A stretch of 64,000 nt of DNA from Escherichia coli phage NG_S8, in sequence record LC788711.1. The stretch is one strand, 5' to 3'. Made by a program: the position numbers and the translations under genes. The notes below the pieces were generated by a model that was given only the letters and a program-made list of their open reading frames with translations, was not told where the DNA came from and did no database searches. The first letter of the stretch is position 1. Every line of letters starts with the position of its first letter. Shown piece after piece: positions 5,028-33,864 of the stretch.

Positions 5028-5360
5028 TCAAGGCAGACGCCAAATATAATGGGCTGTCCAAAGTGTTTCTGGTTCATCGTCATGATGCATCACTAGGGAC
5101 TCTGGAGAATAACTATTAGCCAGTTCTTTACGAACCATCTCACGTTCTTCACCAGTTTCAATATTTTTAACAATCACTTTCATATTAAGAGGAGTTAGCT
5201 CAGAAAGTGGTCGCCATAAGTCTTCCAGATCTGTTTTAGTTTTATTCTGGATGGATTGCAAGACTTCTAGTGTCTGAGGATCTACATTAATAAACCCACG
5301 TTCAGTAACAAAACCTAGAAACTCGTCCAGCAGGGTTAATTCACTAAAATTAAGCTTCAT
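5028..5360 (-). CDS. hypothetical protein (110 aa)
   Basis: ORF track. Confidence 0.45.
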   Translation of the reverse strand: MKLNFSELTLLDEFLGFVTERGFINVDPQTLEVLQSIQNKTKTDLEDLWRPLSELTPLNMKVIVKNIETGEEREMVRKELANSYSPESLVMHHDDEPETLWTAHYIWRLP

Positions 5361-5595
5361 CTTTCAGAATATCCTCGATCATGTCAGAAGATTGCTGTAG
5401 TTCGTCTACAATGCGTTTAACGTCAGTTTTTGTCACTTTACCGGCCAACATCGTGAACAGCATTGCAACGATGATGATAGGAACTGGCAGAACAAACAGT
5501 GCTACTTTACCAACGTTCTTCGGGGTCCAGGTATGATACTTAGTAACCAGAACACCAACAATAACCAGATAAAAAGCTAAGATAATTAACATCAT
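5350..5595 (-). CDS. membrane protein (81 aa)
   Basis: two hydrophobic segments. Confidence 0.45.
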   Translation of the reverse strand: MMLIILAFYLVIVGVLVTKYHTWTPKNVGKVALFVLPVPIIIVAMLFTMLAGKVTKTDVKRIVDELQQSSDMIEDILKDEA

Positions 5596-5873
5596 TTCTT
5601 AATCTCCGTGATTACCTGAGCGCGCAGGACTTTAATAGGAAGTTTAGTGTTACCAACAAGAGTTTCAATATTCGTTAGCTTTTCTTTAAGAAGATCTGAG
5701 CGTCTTTGTGCTAATTCGATATCTTCTTCCTGTTCAACGAGACGTTTAACTAGCCCATCATTGGTGAGGCGCATCCTATCCATATTTTTATTAGCATTAA
5801 TAATGCCAATGATTCCGCCAATTGCTGCTAAAGTCGTGAGAACCAGCAATCCAATTAAAATTTCTGTAATCAT
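5592..5873 (-). CDS. membrane protein with coiled coil (93 aa)
   Basis: N-terminal TM segment then charged helix. Confidence 0.45.
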   Translation of the reverse strand: MITEILIGLLVLTTLAAIGGIIGIINANKNMDRMRLTNDGLVKRLVEQEEDIELAQRRSDLLKEKLTNIETLVGNTKLPIKVLRAQVITEIKK

Positions 5874-6268
5874 TTAAATACTCCGTTGCCACATTCAATA
5901 TATGGGCTTATAGTTCTATAAAACGTGATTTTTTCTAAAGATTGGTCAATTGATTTACAAAATCTTTTGGCCTCTTCAATTTGATGCTTTATTTCTTCCA
6001 AGTCTTTCATAACGTGTGCATCTTTTACTTCAGCACCGGAATATTTTGAGAGAGCTATATCAAACTCTGCTTGATTAAGCACAAGGTTTGCTTCTGAGAG
6101 CATTTTATTACGTTTTGCTTGTTCTTTGATTTCCGGGCTAATGTACACTTGTTCAAGAGCTTCTTTCTTCTCATGCTGATTAAGCATGAGGTCACTAACA
6201 CCGAGTGTGATAGCTAGGGAGACTAGGGCATTCAGCCCTAGTACAAGTAAGAATTTTCCATTAGTCAT
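5870..6268 (-). CDS. membrane-anchored protein (132 aa)
   Basis: N-terminal TM segment. Confidence 0.45.
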   Translation of the reverse strand: MTNGKFLLVLGLNALVSLAITLGVSDLMLNQHEKKEALEQVYISPEIKEQAKRNKMLSEANLVLNQAEFDIALSKYSGAEVKDAHVMKDLEEIKHQIEEAKRFCKSIDQSLEKITFYRTISPYIECGNGVFK

Positions 6269-6597: not shown

Positions 6598-7029
6598 TTA
6601 CCAATCGTTAACGAAACCTGAGAACTCAGAAGCAAATACTAACTCAAATTTCTCAGCAATTTCAGGGTGATCTTTACAGATCAGTTCAATGCACTTCTCA
6701 GGTTCCATACCATCTTCTTCAGGATCACCGTAATACTTGTCCCAAAGATCATCAGGAATAACTTGCTCAGCTAGATCTTGGAAGTTCACTAACTGATAGC
6801 GTGGAGTATCCTCATTAATAAAAATCTCATGCAATTCCTCAGATACTTCTCCCTTATAATCGGAAATTAGCAGAGCATTGCAAGCAAAACATTCCCACAT
6901 CATCAAACGCTCAGAAATCGGGTTCGATTTGTCTTGAACATAGGACTGAAAGACTGCCTTAAAAGTAGATTTAACTTGCTCAAACTTATCTGCTGTTGCG
7001 ATTAAAAGTGCTTTATCAATCTTTTGCAT
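6598..7029 (-). CDS. hypothetical protein (143 aa)
   Basis: ORF track. Confidence 0.5.
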   Translation of the reverse strand: MQKIDKALLIATADKFEQVKSTFKAVFQSYVQDKSNPISERLMMWECFACNALLISDYKGEVSEELHEIFINEDTPRYQLVNFQDLAEQVIPDDLWDKYYGDPEEDGMEPEKCIELICKDHPEIAEKFELVFASEFSGFVNDW

Positions 7030-7059
7030 TTTGATTCCTTCTCATCAATTTATAAAGTA

Positions 7060-7088
7060 ATTATACAGAAAACTAAGCATTTTAGCAA
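7060..7088 (-). promoter_or_regulatory. T5-type early promoter
   Basis: attata 7060-7065, tagcaa 7083-7088. Confidence 0.55.
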
Positions 7089-7191
7089 ATGAAGTTTTTA
7101 AAATAAAAGGCCTAAGCCTAGGCCCGTAAAGAAAGAGATAAGAACTACTATCCCTATTGCTATAAATATCTCACGAGCCATGCCATCAAAA

Positions 7192-7782
7192 TCAAACATT
7201 GATATCTCCCCTCAATACCGCTGCCACATCTTCATCGATTTGGAGTACTTCACCAGTAGTGCAGTTAACCACTTTATCATAGCTTGTGAATTTGCCAGAC
7301 ACAATATCCTCTAGAGGAATAGGAGTCTTGCTCATCTCAAAAGAGACGTTGATATAACGTGGGTCACGCACAGAATTAGTGTGCACATGTCCGTGAATGT
7401 TTAGCCTACCACGAAGTTCTGCTTCGTGCAATGGACAATGTGACAGCCAAAACTTCTTGCCACCACCTGTTTGCTTACCTAGAGCCTGAATATCATCATA
7501 AACGTCTACAAGATCTTTAATATGCAGACCCTGACGCTCAGCATCGTGGTTTCCCATAATTAGTTGGTTAGGCACGTTGTGGATAACCGACTTCAACTTG
7601 GCCAACCCTTCTCGCCCCACGGCACTATCTCCTAGCAGCACAAGTTTTGTACGCTTGCCAATGTGCTTGGACAAAGTATCTAGGATATACTCATCGTGCT
7701 CTTTCATGTTCTTAAACCAGGGGCGAAAACGAAGAATCCCTGGGTGGTCTAAGTGGAGTTCACTCCAGAATTTAACTTTCAT
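7192..7782 (-). CDS. calcineurin-like metallophosphoesterase (196 aa)
   Basis: motifs GDSAVGR, GNHD, GHVH. Confidence 0.6.
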   Translation of the reverse strand: MKVKFWSELHLDHPGILRFRPWFKNMKEHDEYILDTLSKHIGKRTKLVLLGDSAVGREGLAKLKSVIHNVPNQLIMGNHDAERQGLHIKDLVDVYDDIQALGKQTGGGKKFWLSHCPLHEAELRGRLNIHGHVHTNSVRDPRYINVSFEMSKTPIPLEDIVSGKFTSYDKVVNCTTGEVLQIDEDVAAVLRGDINV

Positions 7783-10961: not shown

Positions 10962-11375
10962 TCAGACTAATTCTACGTGACCACCGTCGTAAGTACCACG
11001 ATCGATCTCATCATGATAATCACCAGAACTATTCCAGTCGGCACCAAAACGAAGTTTGACACCAAGTTCCTTACCGGCTTGTTCAAAAGCCTTCTTAACA
11101 GCCCAAAATGCTTCCAGATCTTTCCAATCAATCTTTCCATTAATATATGGTGCAAAATCGATAGCGTCTCCAGTTACATGCTTACTCTTGCTAGGGTCTT
11201 TCAAAAATGAAGTACCATTAGCAATGTTTTGGGCACTTTGTGCTACTGTACGAATACCCTGTACGATTGTGAAATCATATGGAGATAATTCTAAAGCCCT
11301 ACGAGCTACCTTTTGTAGCTCGGGCTTAACAGTTGCTAATTGTTTTTCGCTATTTTTACCAAATTTAAAACTCAT
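10962..11375 (-). CDS. lys: endolysin, L-alanyl-D-glutamate peptidase type (137 aa)
   Basis: size and sequence recalled as EndoT5-like; zinc peptidase His/Asp residues. Confidence 0.7.
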   Translation of the reverse strand: MSFKFGKNSEKQLATVKPELQKVARRALELSPYDFTIVQGIRTVAQSAQNIANGTSFLKDPSKSKHVTGDAIDFAPYINGKIDWKDLEAFWAVKKAFEQAGKELGVKLRFGADWNSSGDYHDEIDRGTYDGGHVELV

Positions 11376-12028
11376 ATAGATCTACCTAATGATCTCCGTT
11401 GTGGGGAACAGAGCTTTGCTAAGTACTCATTAAATTGTTCCGAATCAGCTGTATCTACGGGTTTATCCTTCCATGCAATACCTATGTATCCAGCATAGGT
11501 ATTATTTAGGTTGAAATATGGACAAGTGTAGACGTAATTAAAAGTAATGTTCTTAAATGCTGGTATATTTGACCCAGTATATTTATTTACTTTTACACTT
11601 AAATCCGCAGCGTAGTTAAAGCCTTCCAGGTGACGTCTATAAAGTTCAGACGTCTTATTTACTGCTTTATCGGCCAAGTCAGCCCTATCCAATTGCGCAT
11701 TGCTTTCCCATGCAATAATGTTTGAATAATCATTTATAGCATCTGGTTTATACTTTACTACAAAAACGGCATCCGCACCAGTCTGGGAGAAAAGAACCAT
11801 ACTCTTTTCTCGTGCTACATTAGGAAAGTTATCTATCCTTTGGGTTTGAACATCCTGTAAAACCGAAGACGTGGAGAAAGTCTTTAAAAATGACATCACC
11901 TCGCTAGTGTTACTTACAAACAAGAAAATAATGACAGCAACTAAGATAGTTAGCAGACGTTTTAGTAGCGAAGCTGGATCTTTCGCTTCTTGTAGCAGTA
12001 TCGTTAATAGTTGTATAAACTTTTCCAC
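11372..12028 (-). CDS. membrane-anchored hypothetical protein (218 aa, GTG start)
   Basis: ORF track; GAGGAGG RBS; N-terminal TM. Confidence 0.5.
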   Translation of the reverse strand: MEKFIQLLTILLQEAKDPASLLKRLLTILVAVIIFLFVSNTSEVMSFLKTFSTSSVLQDVQTQRIDNFPNVAREKSMVLFSQTGADAVFVVKYKPDAINDYSNIIAWESNAQLDRADLADKAVNKTSELYRRHLEGFNYAADLSVKVNKYTGSNIPAFKNITFNYVYTCPYFNLNNTYAGYIGIAWKDKPVDTADSEQFNEYLAKLCSPQRRSLGRSI

Positions 12029-26016: not shown

Positions 26017-26091
26017 TGGTGCACCCCGTTGGTAACGATCCAACCTCTCAAGCTCTTCAGGCAAGCGCTAATCCATCTCAGCTAAAGGTGC
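26017..26091 (-). tRNA. divergent tRNA, possibly Phe (GAA)
   Basis: CCA, acceptor and D-arm pair; T-loop ATCGTTA atypical; loop CTGAAGA with weak stem. Confidence 0.4.
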
Positions 26092-28075: not shown

Positions 28076-28089
28076 CAAATTTATGAATA

Positions 28090-28118
28090 TATTATACAGA
28101 AAATTTCGGCATTAAGCA
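28090..28118 (-). promoter_or_regulatory. T5-type early promoter driving a tRNA operon
   Basis: attata 28090-28095, aagcaa 28113-28118. Confidence 0.6.
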
Positions 28119-28127
28119 AGTGAAATT

Positions 28128-28424
28128 TTACTGAACATTGCACTGATATACCTGTTTGATACGTGTCACTGACTTCTTAGTTGGGTTGATAGAAGAACCC
28201 TGCCACCAACGTGACTCTGAGCTAAGAACAGCACCAGGAACAGCCTGCTCTTTTGGCAGAACAATATCAAAACACTGTTCACCCATATTATCTTTAATGT
28301 GTGACCAAATATCCAAAGTAAATCGTTCTAACTTATTACAAACCTGAACTTGACAAAGTTCCTGTTGCGGAGCAGCAAATACAGAAGTAGATACTAGAGT
28401 CAATGCAAATACAATGCGTTTCAT
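28128..28424 (-). CDS. secreted hypothetical protein (98 aa; start at signal-peptide Met)
   Basis: GAGAGAGGAA RBS; N-terminus MKRIVFALTLVSTSVFA. Confidence 0.45.
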   Translation of the reverse strand: MKRIVFALTLVSTSVFAAPQQELCQVQVCNKLERFTLDIWSHIKDNMGEQCFDIVLPKEQAVPGAVLSSESRWWQGSSINPTKKSVTRIKQVYQCNVQ

Positions 28425-28454
28425 GTTTGATTCCTCTCTCGAATTTATAAATAT

Positions 28455-28483
28455 ATTATACAGAGAATTTAGCATTCAAGCAA
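28455..28483 (-). promoter_or_regulatory. T5-type early promoter
   Basis: attata 28455-28460, aagcaa 28478-28483. Confidence 0.6.
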
Positions 28484-28626
28484 TTGAATTTTTAAACTTT
28501 TTAGTGGAAAATCGCAGGGCACTTAAGGGTAGCACGTTGTTGCTGCAATAATAGTATATGATTCTAAAGAATTAAATACTAAAGACCTTAGTTGAATAAC
28601 TTATGGGCTTTTCTTTTGCCTTAAAT

Positions 28627-28662
28627 ACAGAAAAGCCCGCGCTCTCGGGGGAAACGCGGGCT
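28627..28662 (-). terminator. intrinsic terminator
   Basis: 8-bp GC stem agcccgcg/cgcgggct with U-tract on minus strand. Confidence 0.6.
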
Positions 28663-28686
28663 TGTTTCGAAGATTACGTGTAACTA

Positions 28687-28854
28687 TTACTTATTACGCA
28701 TATCCATGATCATTTGACCATCGTAGCCAGTACCGACAACAGTCTGTGGTACACCACCTTGGTATTTTTCAGCACGAAGCATTTCAACTTCCAGCTGCTT
28801 CCAACGAATTACTTTTTGATCGGAAGTCAGTTCTTTAGTGTTTTTAGTAAACAT
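28687..28854 (-). CDS. small hypothetical protein (55 aa), below track threshold
   Basis: ATG with AAGGAA RBS. Confidence 0.35.
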   Translation of the reverse strand: MFTKNTKELTSDQKVIRWKQLEVEMLRAEKYQGGVPQTVVGTGYDGQMIMDMRNK

Positions 28855-28865
28855 ATATTTCCTTA

Positions 28866-29066
28866 TTATTTAGAAGAGTTAGCTACTACAGTTACTTTAG
28901 TTGCAGAAATAAACAGGCTAGCATCCACAGCAAATTCAGGAGCTTTGATATCTCCGTTATGAAATATGACTATACCGGAGACTACTTCAAATGCTAGTGC
29001 TGTAACATCGGTGGTATTTACTTGTGAATGTTCACCTACTACTTTTACTATATATCGTGTTTTCAC
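28866..29066 (-). CDS. hypothetical protein (66 aa)
   Basis: ORF track. Confidence 0.4.
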   Translation of the reverse strand: MKTRYIVKVVGEHSQVNTTDVTALAFEVVSGIVIFHNGDIKAPEFAVDASLFISATKVTVVANSSK

Positions 29067-29092
29067 TTTATTTTCCTAGCAGTTAATAAAAT

Positions 29093-29167
29093 TGGCCGAG
29101 GTGACAGGATTCGAACCTGCATAAAGGAATTTAGAAGACTCCTGCCTATCCCTTAGACTACACCCCG
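29093..29167 (-). tRNA. tRNA-Arg (TCT)
   Basis: CCA encoded; anticodon arm GGAGT-CTTCTAA-ATTCC; acceptor pairs with one G-U. Confidence 0.7.
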
Positions 29168-30281
29168 TTTAGGTATTTTTAAGAACTCTTATAAAAGCTC
29201 TTAAAGATACCCGACGATAGGTAGGGTCAGCCCCCTCAGATTAAGCTCTGCAGCCCTTCCGTCAGACAATATCTTCCAGTTTAAGTCAGGGTGACTTTGT
29301 GGTTATGCCCTTCGTATGTGAAAGACTCGGTTAGGCTTAGGTCATGACTCCCAGCCTACTGCTGCTCCTCAACAGGAATTATCGCGTTTACCTGTACTAT
29401 TGTGCACCATTAGTGGCATCTCTCATGCCAGCATTTCCCACTCTCATAGTTACGCGGTCTGTTAGAATCGCACCTCCGATTTTCGATGCGAAGCTGGATG
29501 CCTAGTCTCAGGTTAAACGGGGCACACACTAGGCAGTGATCCCGAGTTCCGAGTTTGGTTGAGGCCGTCAGGTTTCCTCGTGGTTTAGCTGTTTCGCCCT
29601 AAACAATTCCTGCAACATTAAGGATGCAGGGGGATAGGTGGTACTCCAGCAGCGAGTGCTTATCCGGTATAAGCCCGAGTTATCCGATTCTTTCCGACCG
29701 TAGGATTCGAACCTACATCTTCCACCAGTTGCGGCTTGATATTACCGTTTATACTAGGACGGCAGTGTTATCGCATAAGTCAGTTCGACACCCCACATTG
29801 TGACTGGTAAGTCCCCCAATGAAGCCATCAGTCGTTAGACCTCCATCATTCATTAAAAACTTACGCTATTCACTATTCGATGGACAATCGCCGCATTGTG
29901 GTATACATACGTCTTGACTTGCATCCTAGACGGGTCAGCGTTGAAAGTTATATGGATTTCTCAAGCCCAACCTTCAGTCTTCTACCCCTGGGACACGCAC
30001 CGTACTTCACACTATGCCTAGCTCATGTTGAGAACCATCGTTTTGTATAAATTAGAGAAGAGTTTACGAGGTTTCGGGACAGCTCCCGAATTTTACAAGA
30101 CGTCTCGAATCTGACCGCAAAGTCGGCTCATTGGCCGGATATACCGGACTAGGCGTCATAAGTCTCACAGATGATCTTTCTTAACTCACCGACTCTATTC
30201 AGTGGAGTAGCTATCTCGGCATCCGAGAATCACTAAACTCACTCAGCGTAATCGGCTCGCTGTTCTCTAATTTATGAATCT
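29168..30281 (-). ncRNA. candidate large non-coding RNA / long ORF-free transcribed region
   Basis: about 1.1 kb with no ORF of 60 aa or more on either strand; promoter at 30282-30310; several local hairpins; embedded tRNA-like hairpin. Confidence 0.35.
29692..29767 (-). ncRNA. degenerate tRNA-like element (T-arm only)
   Basis: T-arm gtagg-attcgaa-cctac at 29700-29716; no complementary 5-prime acceptor strand. Confidence 0.3.
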
Positions 30282-30310
30282 ATTATACAGAATTTTGAAG
30301 CGTTTAGCAA
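30282..30310 (-). promoter_or_regulatory. T5-type early promoter driving the ORF-free region
   Basis: attata 30282-30287, tagcaa 30305-30310. Confidence 0.6.
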
Positions 30311-30318
30311 ATCAATTT

Positions 30319-30762
30319 TTAATTAAATTCGCCAGCAACCTGAGCAGCGATGCCACCGTCATAACGACCAGGGAATTCTTCCTTAATCGCTTTCATCAGC
30401 ATACCTTTTGTAATCCCAGGGTTCAACTTAACTAATTCTGCAAAGTATTTGCGAATCTCAGAATCAGAAAGCTGAGGAGGCAGATACTGTTGTAACCATT
30501 TGTTCAGTATATATTCATACTGAGCAGACTGCAAGCTATAATTATCAAGGTCTTGACCATGAAGTTTAGCTTTCGTCTGATTAATGCTTTTCAGTTGAGC
30601 TTTTAGATAAGATACAAACTGCTCAGAAGTAATGAAGTCTTTATCAACACGCTGAAGATCTCCGATTATGGTCTGATAGCTTTTAGCTACTTCTTTATCA
30701 GAACCATCAACCTTAGATTCCTGCAAAGCCCTACGCAAAACATCTAGAATATTCTCTTCCAT
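30319..30762 (-). CDS. GatB/YqeY-domain protein (147 aa)
   Basis: C-terminal pattern YLPPQLS...GITKGMLMKAIKEEFPGRYDGG resembles YqeY family. Confidence 0.55.
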   Translation of the reverse strand: MEENILDVLRRALQESKVDGSDKEVAKSYQTIIGDLQRVDKDFITSEQFVSYLKAQLKSINQTKAKLHGQDLDNYSLQSAQYEYILNKWLQQYLPPQLSDSEIRKYFAELVKLNPGITKGMLMKAIKEEFPGRYDGGIAAQVAGEFN

Positions 30763-30932
30763 TATTTAATTCCCAGTGCTTGGTTAAAAGATTGTTCTGT
30801 CATAACTGCCGAGACTTTAGCGAAATCAAACTTCTTAGGGTTTGTAGTAATTTCAGCAACGTTAGTAGTTTTAACTGTTTTCGTAGTACGGATACCACGA
30901 GTATTAACACCAATAATTACAACTGATTTCAT
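30762..30932 (-). CDS. small hypothetical protein (56 aa), below track threshold
   Basis: GAGAGGAAG RBS; stop overlaps downstream ATG (TAATG). Confidence 0.4.
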   Translation of the reverse strand: MKSVVIIGVNTRGIRTTKTVKTTNVAEITTNPKKFDFAKVSAVMTEQSFNQALGIK

Positions 30933-30963
30933 ATTTCGCTTCCTCTCATTAATTTATGAAAGT

Positions 30964-30992
30964 ATTATACAGAAATTTAAGGCTTTAAGCAA
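30964..30992 (-). promoter_or_regulatory. T5-type early promoter
   Basis: attata 30964-30969, aagcaa 30987-30992. Confidence 0.6.
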
Positions 30993-31000
30993 TCGAATTT

Positions 31001-31468
31001 TTAAGTTTTCTTAACCACAGGCTTGTAGAACGTATGGCCTTGAATCTTCGTTGTTTTCTTAAACTTCTTTGTCCAGTACGGTTTATCTTTACCACTATGG
31101 AAGTATAACGCTCCATGTGTTGGATCTTGTGGTAAATCAACGTAGTATATCACTCTAGCTAAATTCTTAGCAACTTGCCAAGCCTCATCGGTTTTATCAA
31201 CTTTTGGTCTCTTGGCCACCCAAGAGAACTGGTTAGACTGATATACTACTTTACAGTAAGAATCAGGAAAAGTACCAGAGTTAACACGGTTTTTAGTAAC
31301 CTGTGCAACTGCGATCATTCCTTTAGTGCCCTCACCTCGTGCTTCGAAGTAGATATTTTTTGCAATGCAATCAATCTGCTTTGAGTCGTAGGTCGCATGA
31401 CTATTGAAGCTATAGGTTAGGGCAGCTATTAAAAGCAAAGCTGCCTTCATTTTATTTACTCCGGCCAA
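31001..31468 (-). CDS. SleB-like cell wall hydrolase with signal peptide (155 aa)
   Basis: motif NIYFEARGE...AVAQVTKNR. Confidence 0.55.
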   Translation of the reverse strand: MAGVNKMKAALLLIAALTYSFNSHATYDSKQIDCIAKNIYFEARGEGTKGMIAVAQVTKNRVNSGTFPDSYCKVVYQSNQFSWVAKRPKVDKTDEAWQVAKNLARVIYYVDLPQDPTHGALYFHSGKDKPYWTKKFKKTTKIQGHTFYKPVVKKT

Positions 31469-31773
31469 TCGTACTCAATACGATTAGGGCTTTCTTGATA
31501 CCCTTCGTCTAAGAGATCATTACGCATGGTCTCTTTAGCTACTGGGTTCGAGGTTACTAGTACCACTTTCTTGGGTCTCTGACCAAATTCTAGGAGTAAA
31601 CGAAGAATTTGATAACCTTCCATACCATCTACAGCCAGATCGTTATCCATATAAACGAAATGACCTGTGGTATCGGTTTTATTCAGAAACTCAACAGCGG
31701 CTTCGGGGGTTCGAATGATAATGTCCATTCCATGAAGGTTACGCACATCATCAATCAGAATATGAAAAATCAT
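31456..31773 (-). CDS. stand-alone receiver-domain-like protein (105 aa), tentative
   Basis: ILIDDV...YMDNDLAVDGMEGYQILRLL resembles a CheY-like acidic pocket. Confidence 0.35.
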   Translation of the reverse strand: MIFHILIDDVRNLHGMDIIIRTPEAAVEFLNKTDTTGHFVYMDNDLAVDGMEGYQILRLLLEFGQRPKKVVLVTSNPVAKETMRNDLLDEGYQESPNRIEYDWPE

Positions 31774-31803: not shown

Positions 31804-31832
31804 ATTATACAGAAAACTAAACTAATTAGCAA
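31804..31832 (-). promoter_or_regulatory. T5-type early promoter
   Basis: attata 31804-31809, tagcaa 31827-31832. Confidence 0.6.
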
Positions 31833-32216
31833 ATACATTTTTAAATTGAGAGACTAGTAAACCGATAAACAGCCTAGAGGCGCCACAGGCCATATCTTAT
31901 GAGCCATGTACCTTTGATCTAGGGTTTGAATCATCAACGAATACTTTGCATCTTTTAGCTTTAGAAGGTTAGAAGTTTGAGTGCTTTTAACTTTTCAGCT
32001 TTCATACTTGAGCGTTGATCTTTGAAGTTGTGTTGGTACTACCAACGACCTTTTGTTTTTACGTGTCAGATTAAATGTCTGATGTAATAAACATAATCTC
32101 CAATAGATTATACTTTATAGTATGGTCAGCGGTCTTATTTAACCTCGTATTTCAACCGCTGCTGCGAGGTAAGATGCTTGGGCTTTCGTCTACCGATTTA
32201 CTAGTCTTTTAAATTA

Positions 32217-32855
32217 TTACTCTACTTCGATAAAAGTAGAGGCGTTGGACTCAGACAGAACAAAGTCAACGTTGGTTGCAAAGTCCTGGTACTCTTCGTC
32301 GTGTTGCTTGATCAGCTTTTCCAGCTCCAGCGGATCGATCAGGAACGGAGTGTTCTTGAGTTCCAGCAGGTTAAGCTGCATCTTAACTTCATCCTCGGAA
32401 GTCTTCTTGTCACGGGTAGCCATGGTATCCTGCAAACGCTCATACTTGGCATCAAACTGAGCCTTTTGAGTGTTAAACTTAACAGTAGCAGCATGGAACT
32501 GCTTACGCATGTTAGCCAGCAACTGAGCTTTGAGTTCCATAGAACGCTTAGCTTCGATTGCTTCCGCAACAGTCATAGAGCGGGAACCGATCTCTACAAC
32601 AGTTTCAGCATTGCTCTTGATCAGCGCTGCTTTCAGATGATCACGCTGGGTCATCATATCCAGCAGAGACTGGAAATCAGTTTTAATACGAGTAGACAGA
32701 GCATCTACTTCGATTGCAGCACCAACGACAACTTGATTCTTGTCTTTACCTTCACCAACAGCAATCAAAAGCTGTTGTTCAGTAGCTTTACGGATTTTAG
32801 CTTCCAGAGACTTGATAGTTGCCAGAGCACGAGTTTTAGAGATACGAGTAGTCAT
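32217..32855 (-). CDS. hypothetical coiled-coil protein (212 aa)
   Basis: ORF track. Confidence 0.5.
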   Translation of the reverse strand: MTTRISKTRALATIKSLEAKIRKATEQQLLIAVGEGKDKNQVVVGAAIEVDALSTRIKTDFQSLLDMMTQRDHLKAALIKSNAETVVEIGSRSMTVAEAIEAKRSMELKAQLLANMRKQFHAATVKFNTQKAQFDAKYERLQDTMATRDKKTSEDEVKMQLNLLELKNTPFLIDPLELEKLIKQHDEEYQDFATNVDFVLSESNASTFIEVE

Positions 32856-33162: not shown

Positions 33163-33864
33163 TCAAATTTTGATTTTTTCGATCATGATGGCTACACAAT
33201 AACTTTCAACTAAAGCATCGAATGCGGGATCATGTTTCACTGGATAGATTCCATAACGAATGGTATCCATCTTTTCCATTTTAGCTTTTGCCCAGCTAGC
33301 ACCTTCGGCTTCTAGATCTTTATAACTATAACCAGCTTGCATCCACTGATTACGGAAAGATCGAACGTTACCTAAGTTCCAGAATTTCCATGGAACTATT
33401 TCTTCATGGGTTCCGGCATGGAATGTATTTGCAGAGTAGATAGTCATATCAAACTCTGGGCCATTGCCGTAGTACAGAGCATTATCTCCTAGAGACAATT
33501 CCATAATGTTCTGAGCCATAGAGAAGGCAGCATAATTAGAGCCTACGTCATTAGTGCAGTGATGCTTACCATCACGGAAGGCAATCAGTTTAGGATTACG
33601 ACCATTTAGAGCCTCCATAATATGGAGCGCAGATGGACTGTTTTTAGCTTGATCCATCCAGAATGCAATAGTAGAGGCAGTTACCTTAGCACCCGCATTA
33701 AGCTGATCTTGAACGTCTAGAGTAACGAATACCAGATCAGGATCTTTATCAATTCCGTGCATCGCTACAAAAGAGAAAGAAGGCATTGCAATATGAGTAG
33801 TACCGCAATTTCCTGGAGTACCTAGAGATTCAATGTCCAGCATACCAAAGGGCTTGAATTTCAT
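33163..33864 (-). CDS. DEDDh-type 3-prime-5-prime exonuclease-like protein (233 aa)
   Basis: LDIESLG (Exo I-like) and HDPAFDALV (Exo III-like) motifs. Confidence 0.5.
   Translation of the reverse strand: MKFKPFGMLDIESLGTPGNCGTTHIAMPSFSFVAMHGIDKDPDLVFVTLDVQDQLNAGAKVTASTIAFWMDQAKNSPSALHIMEALNGRNPKLIAFRDGKHHCTNDVGSNYAAFSMAQNIMELSLGDNALYYGNGPEFDMTIYSANTFHAGTHEEIVPWKFWNLGNVRSFRNQWMQAGYSYKDLEAEGASWAKAKMEKMDTIRYGIYPVKHDPAFDALVESYCVAIMIEKIKI

What the first reader, a model, noticed from the sequence alone, without database searches (positions are those of the whole stretch)
30319..31773. YqeY-domain protein, SleB-like hydrolase and receiver-like protein adjacent to the tRNA block
Immediately upstream, in transcript sense, of the ORF-free RNA region are three genes with their own promoters: a GatB/YqeY-domain protein (a domain associated with tRNA-dependent amidotransferase and RNA binding), a signal-peptide SleB-type cell wall hydrolase distinct from the endolysin at 10962, and a small protein with a CheY-like acidic pocket. 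A YqeY protein beside a tRNA cluster suggests a tRNA-related role.
Basis: inference. Interest (0 to 1): 0.45.

Follow-up and report, generated by a model that had tools for sequence, protein, structure and literature searches.

The report
T5-type accessory early genes beside tRNAs
This stretch holds four small, well-conserved early genes of a T5-like phage (a receiver-like predicted phosphoesterase, an exported cell-wall hydrolase, a tiny unknown protein and a YqeY tRNA-binding-type protein); they are already annotated in phage T5, dispensable in the laboratory, and of untested function.

Summary
The window is a T5-like phage (Epseptimavirus, 96.6% to Salmonella phage HMD-P2). The finding covers the orthologs of T5.084–T5.081. 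All three domain calls hold up.

- The 105-aa protein is a cREC receiver-like domain (PF20274) with an invariant acidic pocket.
- The 149-aa protein is a Hydrolase_2/SleB-type catalytic domain with a signal peptide. It is separate from the holin–endolysin cassette.
- The 147-aa protein has the full YqeY fold.

Two corrections. A fourth gene (DUF7616, 56 aa) was missed. There are two bicistronic units, not three single-gene units; the third promoter drives the ORF-free region, which T5 annotates as rnaX, a stable RNA of unknown function.

The tRNA-related idea for YqeY is plausible but untested. The gene stays at or inside the tRNA block in four Demerecviridae lineages while its neighbours change. 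Its conserved part matches the tRNA D-loop pocket of GatB.

In a published T5 knock-down screen, T5.081–T5.085 are not needed on a laboratory host. The genes are already known.

Found in passing: a 371-nt intergenic element (31844–32214) with strong covariation, and a covarying helix inside rnaX.

The parts
31804..31832 (-). T5-type early promoter (TTGCTA-17-TATAAT, preceded by an A-rich stretch) driving cREC + Hydrolase_2
   Evidence: Consensus scan gives 10/12. The sequence is shown. The T5 record annotates a promoter at the equivalent place before T5.084. The roughly 55-nt module recurs at other early promoters.
31456..31773 (-). cREC protein, 105 aa (T5.084 ortholog): a divergent receiver-like domain and predicted Asp-dependent phosphoesterase
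   Evidence: PF20274 E 1.1e-14. The AF2 model has pLDDT 91 and its best PDB matches are receiver domains. D8, D9, R21, D43, D45 and G53 are invariant in 37 diverse family members. dN/dS 0.09-0.14.
31001..31450 (-). Exported Hydrolase_2 (SleB-type catalytic domain) protein, 149 aa (T5.083 ortholog). It starts 5 nt after the cREC stop.
   Evidence: PF07486 E 4.4e-26. It matches the SleB catalytic domains 4F55/4FET at E 7e-9, with YFEARGE aligned to YGESRGE. The N-terminus MKAALLLIAALTYSFNSHA|T reads as a signal peptide (by inspection). It scores 54 bits against the 236.5 cut-off of the true SleB equivalog model. dN/dS 0.10-0.14.
30964..30992 (-). T5-type early promoter (TTGCTT-17-TATAAT) driving DUF7616 + YqeY
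   Evidence: Sequence. It is equivalent to T5 promoter 'P-D/E 33'. The simple consensus scan does not list it because its -35 hexamer matches only 3 of 6 positions.
30762..30932 (-). Its stop overlaps the YqeY start (TAATG).
   Evidence: PF24592 E 5.6e-34 over its full length. PHROG 5077 E 1.6e-40. dN/dS 0.04-0.09.
30319..30762 (-). Stand-alone YqeY protein, 147 aa (T5.081 ortholog)
   Evidence: PHROG 1460 E 2.8e-46. PF09424 25.4 bits against a cut-off of 27. The family profile matches 1NG6 at E 0.005. The AF2 model has pLDDT 92, and its top six PDB matches are all YqeY, led by 8XJE at TM 0.70. dN/dS 0.07 within its allele class.
30282..30310 (-). T5-type early promoter (TTGCTA-17-TATAAT) lying after YqeY. 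It drives the ORF-free RNA region, not a protein gene.
   Evidence: Consensus scan gives 10/12. It is equivalent to T5 promoter 'P 16-17', annotated directly upstream of rnaX.
29168..30280 (-). Context: homolog of T5 rnaX ('stable RNA with unknown functions'), followed by tRNA-Arg(UCU) at 29093-29167
   Evidence: T5 annotation. No ORF of 60 aa or more. Mosaic conservation. A covarying helix encloses a tRNA-like insert at 29692-29763.
31844..32214 (-). Context: conserved, unannotated structured intergenic element directly upstream of the cREC promoter
   Evidence: It is 95-97% identical to T5-like phages whose flanking genes are 86-90% identical. It is detectable in My1-like phages. Of 76 predicted pairs, 33 show compensatory changes. 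93.6% of cells are paired against 34-43% in slid controls.

Best explanation
This is an ordinary, conserved piece of the early region of a T5-like phage, corresponding to T5.084, T5.083, T5.082 and T5.081. It is expressed as two bicistronic units from strong T5-type early promoters.

Unit 1 encodes two proteins.
- A cytoplasmic cREC protein: a stripped-down receiver fold that keeps the Asp-Asp...Asp-x-Asp metal/phosphoryl pocket. I infer, following the authors who defined the family, that it hydrolyses a cyclic phosphate. Candidate substrates are 2',3'-cyclic RNA ends or nucleotides, or cyclic ADP-ribose derivatives.
- A Sec-exported SleB-type muramidase or lytic transglycosylase domain. It would act on peptidoglycan in the periplasm, separately from the holin/endolysin/spanin lysis set.

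Unit 2 encodes a 56-aa protein of unknown role, translationally coupled to a stand-alone YqeY protein. I infer that YqeY uses its conserved C-terminal sub-domain to bind the elbow (D-loop region) of phage tRNAs or of the tRNA-like part of the adjacent rnaX RNA. That sub-domain is the counterpart of the GatB tail pocket. E. coli has no YqeY of its own.

What is shown: gene identity, folds, conserved residues, promoters and gene order. What is inferred: every biochemical activity and the tRNA link.

The four genes are accessory, most likely conditionally useful (for example against host defences that attack tRNA or use nucleotide signals). I see no evidence that they form one machine.
For: - Identity and synteny with T5 and about 500 relatives.
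- Family and fold assignments.
- Invariant acidic pocket across 37 diverse cREC proteins out of 422 cluster representatives.
- Catalytic-Glu motif aligned to solved SleB structures.
- A separate lysis cassette in the window, plus spanins annotated in T5.
- Purifying selection on all four ORFs.
- YqeY stays with the tRNA block in Markadamsvirinae, My1-like, Thalassa-like and Proteus (Novosibvirus) phages while its neighbours change.
- A 6-tRNA cluster lies 3.5 kb from YqeY in the unrelated jumbo phage RsoM2USA. A tRNA-adjacent YqeY is also reported for phage pf16 (PMC5587285).
- The YqeY residues most conserved in the phage family (K119, M123, K127, G132, Y134, D135, G136) align to the B. subtilis YqeY-C stretch. 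That stretch superposes on the GatB tail pocket (PMC2811023).
- The YqeY domain raises tRNA affinity in Deinococcus GlnRS (PMC1865053).
- yqeY is absent from E. coli (PMC13374519).
- The cREC prediction and its gene contexts come from Iyer et al. 2021 (PMC7824862).
- A cREC homolog lies 2 kb after the tRNA cluster in KVP40-like Vibrio phages.
- T5.081-T5.085 are all 'Not Fit' in the T5 CRISPRi-ART tables.
Against: - No activity of any of the four proteins has been measured, here or in the papers I could read.
- The YqeY-tRNA adjacency is mostly one inherited arrangement within one phage family. Three of four unrelated YqeY-bearing phages have no tRNA within 6 kb.
- In Deinococcus GlnRS the YqeY domain worked only in cis (PMC1865053).
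- This YqeY scores just under Pfam's own cut-off.
- cREC's closest companions in the defining paper (RNA ligases, Macro/NADAR and other NAD-processing enzymes) are not next to it here. The NAD-salvage genes that relatives carry in this region are missing at the syntenic place in this window.
- One sentence of the CRISPRi-ART supplement calls T5.084 'Fit', contradicting its own tables.
Confidence: 0.6

Rival explanations
1. The genes are functionally unrelated to the tRNA block. Their position is inherited gene order in a mosaic early region, and YqeY acts elsewhere in translation (for example with ribosomal protein bS21 or the small subunit), supplying a factor that E. coli lacks.
For: - In bacteria, yqeY is typically co-operonic and co-regulated with rpsU (bS21) (PMC13374519; PMC12054373).
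- phiM19, JohannJBalmer and Deifobo carry YqeY with no tRNA within 6 kb.
- Every gene in this segment has divergent alleles in some relatives, as expected of a freely recombining accessory region.
Against: - YqeY keeps its place at or inside the tRNA block across four lineages despite 31-38% protein identity and loss or relocation of its other neighbours.
- In Thalassa it sits between tRNA-Val and tRNA-Trp.
Confidence: 0.3
2. cREC is a counter-defence enzyme that destroys host immune signalling nucleotides (cyclic ADP-ribose isomers, 2',3'-cyclic or other cyclic nucleotides). It would not be an RNA-end repair enzyme and would have nothing to do with tRNA.
For: - The defining paper offers this as one of two readings (PMC7824862).
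- The protein is a small stand-alone domain in nearly all of 422 cluster representatives, like other phage signal-degrading enzymes.
- It is dispensable on a laboratory host.
- T5-like phages carry NAD-related genes nearby (PnuC, NadR-like, Sir2-like).
Against: - No RNA ligase or Macro partner is present, but no defence-specific context either.
- It lies near tRNA clusters in two unrelated phage families.
- No match in PADLOC, which holds defence rather than anti-defence proteins.
Confidence: 0.3
3. The SleB-type protein is a virion-associated or main lysis enzyme. This covers the first reader's suggestion and the database label 'endolysin'.
For: PHROG 938, 'endolysin', E 1.4e-30. That profile includes very long virion-type proteins.
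Against: - It lies in the early region behind an early promoter, 19 kb from the holin T/M15 endolysin pair.
- It has a short cleavable signal peptide.
- T5 has holin, endolysin and spanins elsewhere, and knock-down of T5.083 gave no fitness defect.
- It was not among the virion proteins identified for AKFV33, though only four bands were analysed there (PMC3326045).
Confidence: 0.05
4. The database names are right: the 147-aa protein is a 'tRNA amidotransferase' or a 'recombination-related exonuclease'.
For: These names appear in many GenBank records and in PHROG 1460.
Against: - The protein consists only of the YqeY helical fold, 147 aa.
- No GatB catalytic domain and no nuclease domain was found at E up to 1.
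- Enteric hosts use GlnRS/AsnRS, so there is no GatCAB partner (established knowledge).
Confidence: 0.02

Closest known systems
Phage T5 genes T5.084, T5.083, T5.082, T5.081 with promoters P-D/E 33 and P 16-17 and the rnaX RNA (NC_005859)
   Same: Same gene order, strand, spacing and promoters. cREC, hydrolase and DUF7616 are 89-92% identical. Identical copies of the window's YqeY and cREC exist in many GenBank phages.
   Different: T5 carries a different YqeY allele (47% identity overall, 30% over residues 10-95). Its rnaX region is shorter: 719 nt against about 1.1 kb here.
Bacterial stand-alone YqeY (B. subtilis 1NG6, C. jejuni 8XJE, V. parahaemolyticus 8XJG) and the GatB/GatE tail domain
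   Same: Same length and all-helical two-part fold. The C-terminal M...G-x-(A/Y)-D-G stretch is conserved.
   Different: Only 14-20% identity. The gene is not next to rpsU. It lacks the Lys-rich KxGKxK insert of GatB and any catalytic GatB domain. The function of free YqeY is itself unknown.
SleB/CwlJ spore-cortex lytic enzymes (Hydrolase_2; 4F55, 4FET)
   Same: Catalytic domain with the Glu-containing E-[AS]-R-G-E motif.
   Different: No N-terminal peptidoglycan-binding domain. It falls far below the SleB equivalog cut-off. It has a Sec signal peptide, a Gram-negative host without muramic-lactam cortex, and a phage early gene context.
cREC domains of jumbo phages and bacteria (Iyer, Anantharaman, Krishnan, Burroughs, Aravind 2021)
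   Same: Passes the family model and has the same invariant acidic residues. It has no two-component partner and is a stand-alone protein of about 100 aa.
   Different: Here it is paired with an exported cell-wall hydrolase, not with an RNA ligase, Macro, NADAR or WYL gene. Activity is untested for any member.
OLE ribonucleoprotein of Bacillota
   Same: A YqeY protein is reported there, as preliminary evidence only, to bind a large structured non-coding RNA (PMC12054373). Here the YqeY gene directly precedes a 0.7-1.1 kb stable RNA gene.
   Different: rnaX has no sequence or Rfam similarity to OLE. No binding data exist for the phage pair.

Membership tests
YqeY (PF09424) | Match to the family profile above its curated cut-off | tested here: inconclusive
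   This sequence scores 25.4 bits against a cut-off of 27, and only over residues 90-141. Close relatives in the same protein family carry a precomputed PF09424 hit. The family profile matches 1NG6 at E 0.005 over residues 18-138.
YqeY (PF09424) | All-helical fold of about 145 aa with N- and C-terminal sub-domains | tested here: met
   AF2 model with pLDDT 92 and seven helices. The six best PDB matches are YqeY proteins, aligned over about 150 columns with TM 0.56-0.70.
YqeY (PF09424) | Conserved C-terminal pocket residues (M, G, A/Y-D-G) flanked by basic residues | tested here: met
   K119, M123, K127, Y134, D135 and G136 are invariant and G132 nearly invariant in 20 phage homologs. They align to the B. 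subtilis YqeY-C stretch.
YqeY (PF09424) | RNA/tRNA binding | not testable with these tools
   Needs binding assays.
GatB tRNA-dependent amidotransferase | GatB catalytic (cradle) domain and GatA/GatC partners | tested here: not met
   The protein is 147 aa and wholly accounted for by the YqeY fold. No other Pfam family scores below E = 0.03.
Hydrolase_2 (PF07486) | Profile match above cut-off and the catalytic Glu motif | tested here: met
   91.9 bits against a cut-off of 27. YFEARGE aligns to YGESRGE of the solved SleB catalytic domains.
True SleB (TIGR02869 equivalog) | Full-length match including the N-terminal peptidoglycan-binding domain | tested here: not met
   54 bits against a cut-off of 236.5. 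Only profile positions 78-201 are matched.
Exported (Sec) protein | N-terminal signal peptide with a -3/-1 cleavage motif | tested here: inconclusive
   By inspection: MK, then an 11-residue hydrophobic core, then S-H-A|T. The N-terminus is conserved in T5. No dedicated predictor was available.
Phage lysis-cassette endolysin | Linked to the holin/spanin genes | tested here: not met
   Holin T and the M15 endolysin lie at 10962-12028, 19 kb away.
cREC (PF20274) | Profile match above cut-off | tested here: met
   55.3 bits against a cut-off of 27, covering profile positions 2-86 of 88.
cREC (PF20274) | Receiver-like alpha/beta fold with conserved Asp residues after strands 1 and 3 | tested here: met
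   AF2 model with pLDDT 91. Its best PDB matches are receiver domains, with TM 0.5-0.59 and weak E-values of 1e-3 to 0.2. D8, D9, D43 and D45 are invariant in 37 diverse members.
cREC (PF20274) | Gene-neighbourhood link to NAD/ADP-ribose-processing or RNA-repair genes | tested here: inconclusive
   No such gene is adjacent here. Relatives carry PnuC and NadR-like genes a few kb away and a Sir2-like gene further off. An Rv2179c-like exoribonuclease lies 1.4 kb upstream.
cREC (PF20274) | Cyclic-phosphate phosphoesterase activity | not testable with these tools
   This is a prediction of the defining paper (PMC7824862). I found no assay.
Canonical two-component receiver (Response_reg) | Response_reg profile match, five alpha/beta units with the conserved Lys after strand 5, and a kinase partner | tested here: not met
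   No Response_reg hit at E up to 1. The CheY sequence match is E 1.4. The model lacks the first and last helices. No conserved Lys appears among the invariant columns.

The most novel reading that the evidence does not exclude
YqeY (with its coupled 56-aa partner) is the protein component of a phage ribonucleoprotein built on the adjacent rnaX RNA. In this reading its conserved C-terminal pocket grips the tRNA-like elbow that sits on the covarying rnaX helix, and its hypervariable N-terminal domain engages a variable host target. The complex, perhaps together with cREC, would protect or decoy the phage tRNA pool against host anticodon nucleases.

This is unexcluded. Its basis is gene adjacency conserved from T5 to Proteus phages, the tRNA-like insert, and the preliminary report that bacterial YqeY binds OLE RNA.
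Probability: 0.12. Interest if true: 0.65.

Novelty: already known. Interest (0 to 1): 0.27.

Why it matters
As found, it matters little. The genes and their domain assignments are already in the T5 record and in hundreds of relatives, and they are dispensable in the laboratory.

Three things are of some use.

1. Corrected labels. 'tRNA amidotransferase', 'recombination-related exonuclease' and 'endolysin' are unsupported or misleading names.

2. A sharper hypothesis. YqeY is the one gene of this group that stays with the tRNA block across the family. Its conserved half is the tRNA-elbow pocket and its N-terminal half is hypervariable. That makes it a reasonable candidate for a tRNA- or rnaX-binding counter-defence factor in a phage whose tRNAs are already known to defeat host tRNA-cleaving immunity.

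3. Two structured RNAs flanking these genes now have covariation support and could be tested directly.

Tried and rejected
- **Word-indexed homolog searches and peptide-pattern locus scans.** They returned only T5-like relatives for both YqeY and cREC, so they said nothing about independent contexts. tblastn against the phage collection was needed.
- **cREC sequence and profile searches against PDB.** These gave only noise. No cREC structure is solved.
- **Domain fusions of cREC.** Among 150 representatives, almost all are stand-alone proteins of about 100 aa. The one informative-looking fusion is an HNH homing endonuclease in a T5-like variant, most likely a mobile-element insertion.
- **NCBIfam and PADLOC.** They added nothing except showing the hydrolase is not a SleB equivalog.
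- **Rfam on the two non-coding stretches.** It found only tRNA-like matches.
- **blastn for more distant copies.** Searches for the rnaX region and for the 371-nt element found only promoters or two Pectobacterium phages. Covariation therefore rests on few lineages.
- **HIDEN-SEQ essentiality preprint.** It has no T5-like phage.
- **Rejected readings.** The hydrolase as main or virion lysin. YqeY as amidotransferase or exonuclease. cREC as a two-component response regulator.
- **One poorly specified literature search** returned nothing relevant.
Full report
**What the window is**

The 3.7 kb around the finding matches about 500 T5-like phage genomes. The best is Salmonella phage HMD-P2 (Epseptimavirus, Demerecviridae) at 96.6% over the full length. 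The window carries 29 tRNA genes on the - strand between 18962 and 29167. Everything in the finding is also on the - strand.

**Checking the observation**

The mechanical ORF list gives four ORFs, not three:
- 31456-31773, 105 aa
- 31001-31468, with an in-frame ATG at 31450 that relatives annotate as the start, giving 149 aa
- 30762-30932, 56 aa
- 30319-30762, 147 aa

Pfam gives:
- cREC_REC, E 1.1e-14
- Hydrolase_2, E 4.4e-26
- DUF7616, E 5.6e-34
- YqeY, 25.4 bits, just under the cut-off of 27 and matched only over the C-terminal third

PHROGs gives phrog_1479, phrog_938, phrog_5077 and phrog_1460, the last at E 2.8e-46 over the whole protein.

All four ORFs are under purifying selection against T5 and two other relatives, with dN/dS 0.04-0.14. 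It missed the 56-aa gene whose stop overlaps the YqeY start.

**Promoters**

The sequence shows three near-identical modules: an A-rich stretch, TTGCT(A/T), a 17-nt spacer, then TTCTGTATAATA. They lie before cREC, before DUF7616 and after YqeY. The same roughly 55-nt module recurs elsewhere in relatives.

The T5 reference record annotates promoters at exactly these three places:
- an unnamed one before T5.084
- 'P-D/E 33' before T5.082
- 'P 16-17' before a misc_RNA called rnaX, described as 'stable RNA with unknown functions', which runs up to tRNA-Arg

The layout is therefore cREC + hydrolase, then DUF7616 + YqeY, then rnaX + tRNA-Arg. 'Three genes with their own promoters' is only partly right.

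**YqeY**

- The single sequence matches B. subtilis YqeY (1NG6) at E 0.023 over nearly its full length.
- A profile of 20 phage homologs matches it at E 0.005.
- An AlphaFold model (pLDDT 92) is seven helices. Its six best PDB matches are all YqeY proteins: C. jejuni 8XJE at TM 0.70, then 1NG6 and 8XJG.
- There is no room for a GatB catalytic domain, and none is detected. The common database names 'tRNA amidotransferase' and 'recombination-related exonuclease' are therefore not supported.
- The residues invariant in the phage family cluster in the C-terminal sub-domain: K119, M123, K127, Y134, D135, G136. They align to the B. subtilis YqeY-C stretch. That stretch superposes on the GatB tail, whose hydrophobic pocket ringed by basic residues is modelled on the tRNA D-loop (PMC2811023).
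- The YqeY domain raises the tRNA affinity of Deinococcus GlnRS, but only in cis (PMC1865053).
- E. coli has no yqeY (PMC13374519).

**Does YqeY go with tRNAs?**

Within Demerecviridae it does.
- In My1 it follows the hydrolase directly and is followed by a DUF4326 gene, then tRNA-Leu.
- In Vibrio phage Thalassa it sits between tRNA-Val and tRNA-Trp, with no hydrolase or cREC nearby.
- In Proteus phage 2 it follows an AAA ATPase and precedes 805 ORF-free bases and tRNA-Arg(UCU).

The presence/absence table shows cREC, the hydrolase and DUF7616 coming and going while YqeY stays.

Outside the family the picture is mixed.
- Jumbo phage RsoM2USA has six tRNAs 3.5 kb upstream.
- phiM19 has none, but has NMN adenylyltransferase, NaPRT, a peptidyl-tRNA hydrolase and a Macro protein nearby.
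- JohannJBalmer and Deifobo have none.
- A paper notes a tRNA-adjacent YqeY in phage pf16.

The tRNA link is therefore suggestive, not established.

**A feature not reported before as far as I could find**

YqeY residues 10-95 are only 30-43% identical between allele classes. This holds in phages whose flanking genes are about 90% identical. The C-terminal 52 residues stay at 67-83%.

**The hydrolase**

- It matches the solved SleB catalytic domains at E 7e-9, with the Glu motif aligned.
- It is far below the cut-off of the true SleB model because it lacks the N-terminal binding domain.
- Its N-terminus reads as a short cleavable signal peptide (by inspection).
- The window's lysis pair, holin T plus an M15 peptidase, is at 10962-12028. 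T5 also has spanins.
- The second 'SleB' hydrolase of T5-like phages has been remarked on in genome papers but never tested.

**cREC**

- The family was defined by gene-context analysis. It was predicted to process cyclic ADP-ribose or 2',3'-cyclic phosphates (PMC7824862).
- The model (pLDDT 91) is a shortened receiver fold. Receiver domains dominate its PDB matches, at modest scores.
- An exhaustive profile search finds 422 cluster representatives, nearly all stand-alone proteins of about 100 aa.
- In 37 diverse members, D8, D9, R21, D43, D45 and G53 are invariant. The 'CheY-like acidic pocket' is thus the family's defining feature.
- It is not a canonical response-regulator receiver.
- A homolog lies 2 kb after the tRNA cluster of KVP40-like Vibrio phages. 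The T5 record already noted that similarity.

**Experimental information**

In the transcriptome-wide CRISPRi-ART screen of T5, T5.081 to T5.085 are all 'Not Fit' in the data tables and absent from the list of 17 Fit genes. One sentence of the supplementary note names T5.084 as Fit, which is inconsistent with the rest. I read the genes as accessory on a laboratory host.

**Explanation and novelty**

The best-supported account is an ordinary accessory early segment. The activities inferred from folds are stated in the explanation section. I find no evidence that the four proteins work together. The exported hydrolase and the cytoplasmic cREC share a transcript but not a compartment.

The finding is already known at the level of annotation. 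What remains open is function.

**Noticed nearby: the intergenic element**

The 'empty' 371 bases between the 212-aa gene and the cREC promoter (31844-32214) are more conserved than the genes around them: 95-97% against 86-90%.
- They are still detectable in My1-like phages.
- They fold into a structure closed by a 25-bp helix.
- Of 76 pairs, 33 show compensatory changes. 93.6% of cells are paired against 34-43% in slid controls. No shuffle out of 500 reaches the observed values.
- Invariant G-U pairs point to the - strand. Both strands fold better than shuffles.
- It has no Rfam match and no feature in the T5 record.

**Noticed nearby: rnaX**

rnaX contains a 12-bp helix with five covarying pairs and no broken pair. 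This holds in seven sequences, including Proteus phage 2.
- The helix encloses either a tRNA-like insert (29692-29763) or unrelated hairpins.
- Its 5' motif occurs once per T5-like genome, always just downstream of YqeY.
- Together with the preliminary report that bacterial YqeY binds OLE RNA, this is the basis of the speculative YqeY-rnaX reading.

Noticed in passing
window 31844-32214 (- strand): A conserved, unannotated structured element fills the gap between the 212-aa gene and the cREC promoter.
- It is 95-97% identical to T5-like phages whose flanking genes are 86-90% identical.
- It is detectable in My1-like phages.
- A 25-bp terminal helix closes it.
- Of 76 pairs, 33 show compensatory changes, with 93.6% of cells paired against 34-43% in slid controls.
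- It has no Rfam match.
- It appears to travel with the 212-aa gene. Thalassa has a similar gap and hairpin after its homolog.

   Followed up: partly
window 29168-30280 (- strand); core about 29650-29800: This is the homolog of T5 rnaX ('stable RNA with unknown functions').
- It is mosaic in length, 0.69-1.4 kb among relatives.
- It has a conserved 12-bp helix with 5 covarying pairs and none broken, including in Proteus phage 2.
- The helix carries a tRNA-like insert in most phages and unrelated hairpins in STG2 and Proteus phage 2.
- ARAGORN calls the insert tRNA-Ser(ACU) in T5 but not in this window.

   Followed up: partly
window 30478-30735 (YqeY codons 10-95): The N-terminal domain of YqeY is a swapped or hypervariable cassette. 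It shows 30-43% identity between allele classes in phages whose neighbouring genes and promoter are about 90% identical. The C-terminal sub-domain stays at 67-83%.
   Followed up: partly
window 26020-26091 (- strand): Rfam finds a tRNA (33.4 bits) that ARAGORN did not report, just before tRNA-Trp. TrudiRoth annotates tRNA-Phe at the equivalent place.
   Followed up: no
window 28077-29092: Relatives (Eps7, TrudiRoth) carry a PnuC-like NMN transporter and a NadR-like adenylyltransferase between tRNA-Ser and tRNA-Arg. This window has only about 1 kb with small ORFs there. I did not check whether the genes lie elsewhere in the window.
   Followed up: no
window 32217-32855 and 33163-33864 (- strand): The 212-aa early protein is widely labelled 'tail fiber protein' (PHROG 1491). 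It has no Pfam match, lies in the early region, and stays next to the tRNA block even in Thalassa. The 233-aa neighbour, labelled 'metallopeptidase' or 'exonuclease', matches the Rv2179c-like 3'-5' exoribonuclease domain.
   Followed up: partly
L059 (Vibrio phage TCU-VP03-AIR1) 6004-8887; L058 (My1) 5347-6065: In KVP40-like phages the cREC homolog lies 2 kb after the tRNA cluster and 1.1 kb before a 478-aa DUF2828+DUF7788 protein. In My1 the YqeY gene overlaps a DUF4326 gene, a domain that the cREC paper links to NAD/ADP-ribose systems.
   Followed up: no
protein P0079 (273 aa); loci L032 and L053 at about 6995-7291: Some T5-like phages carry a divergent cREC allele, 52% identical. One cluster representative, P0079, combines HNH_3 and cREC domains and has the best score among the non-identical cREC hits. 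GenBank labels the divergent allele 'HNH endonuclease' in two other phages. I did not check whether P0079 comes from L032 or L053. A homing-endonuclease insertion or merged gene call seems likely.
   Followed up: no
PMC11879866 supplementary files 1 and 16: The CRISPRi-ART supplement contradicts itself on T5.084. One sentence lists it as 'Fit'. The tables give 'Not Fit' (p = 0.88), and it is absent from the paper's list of 17 Fit genes.
   Followed up: yes
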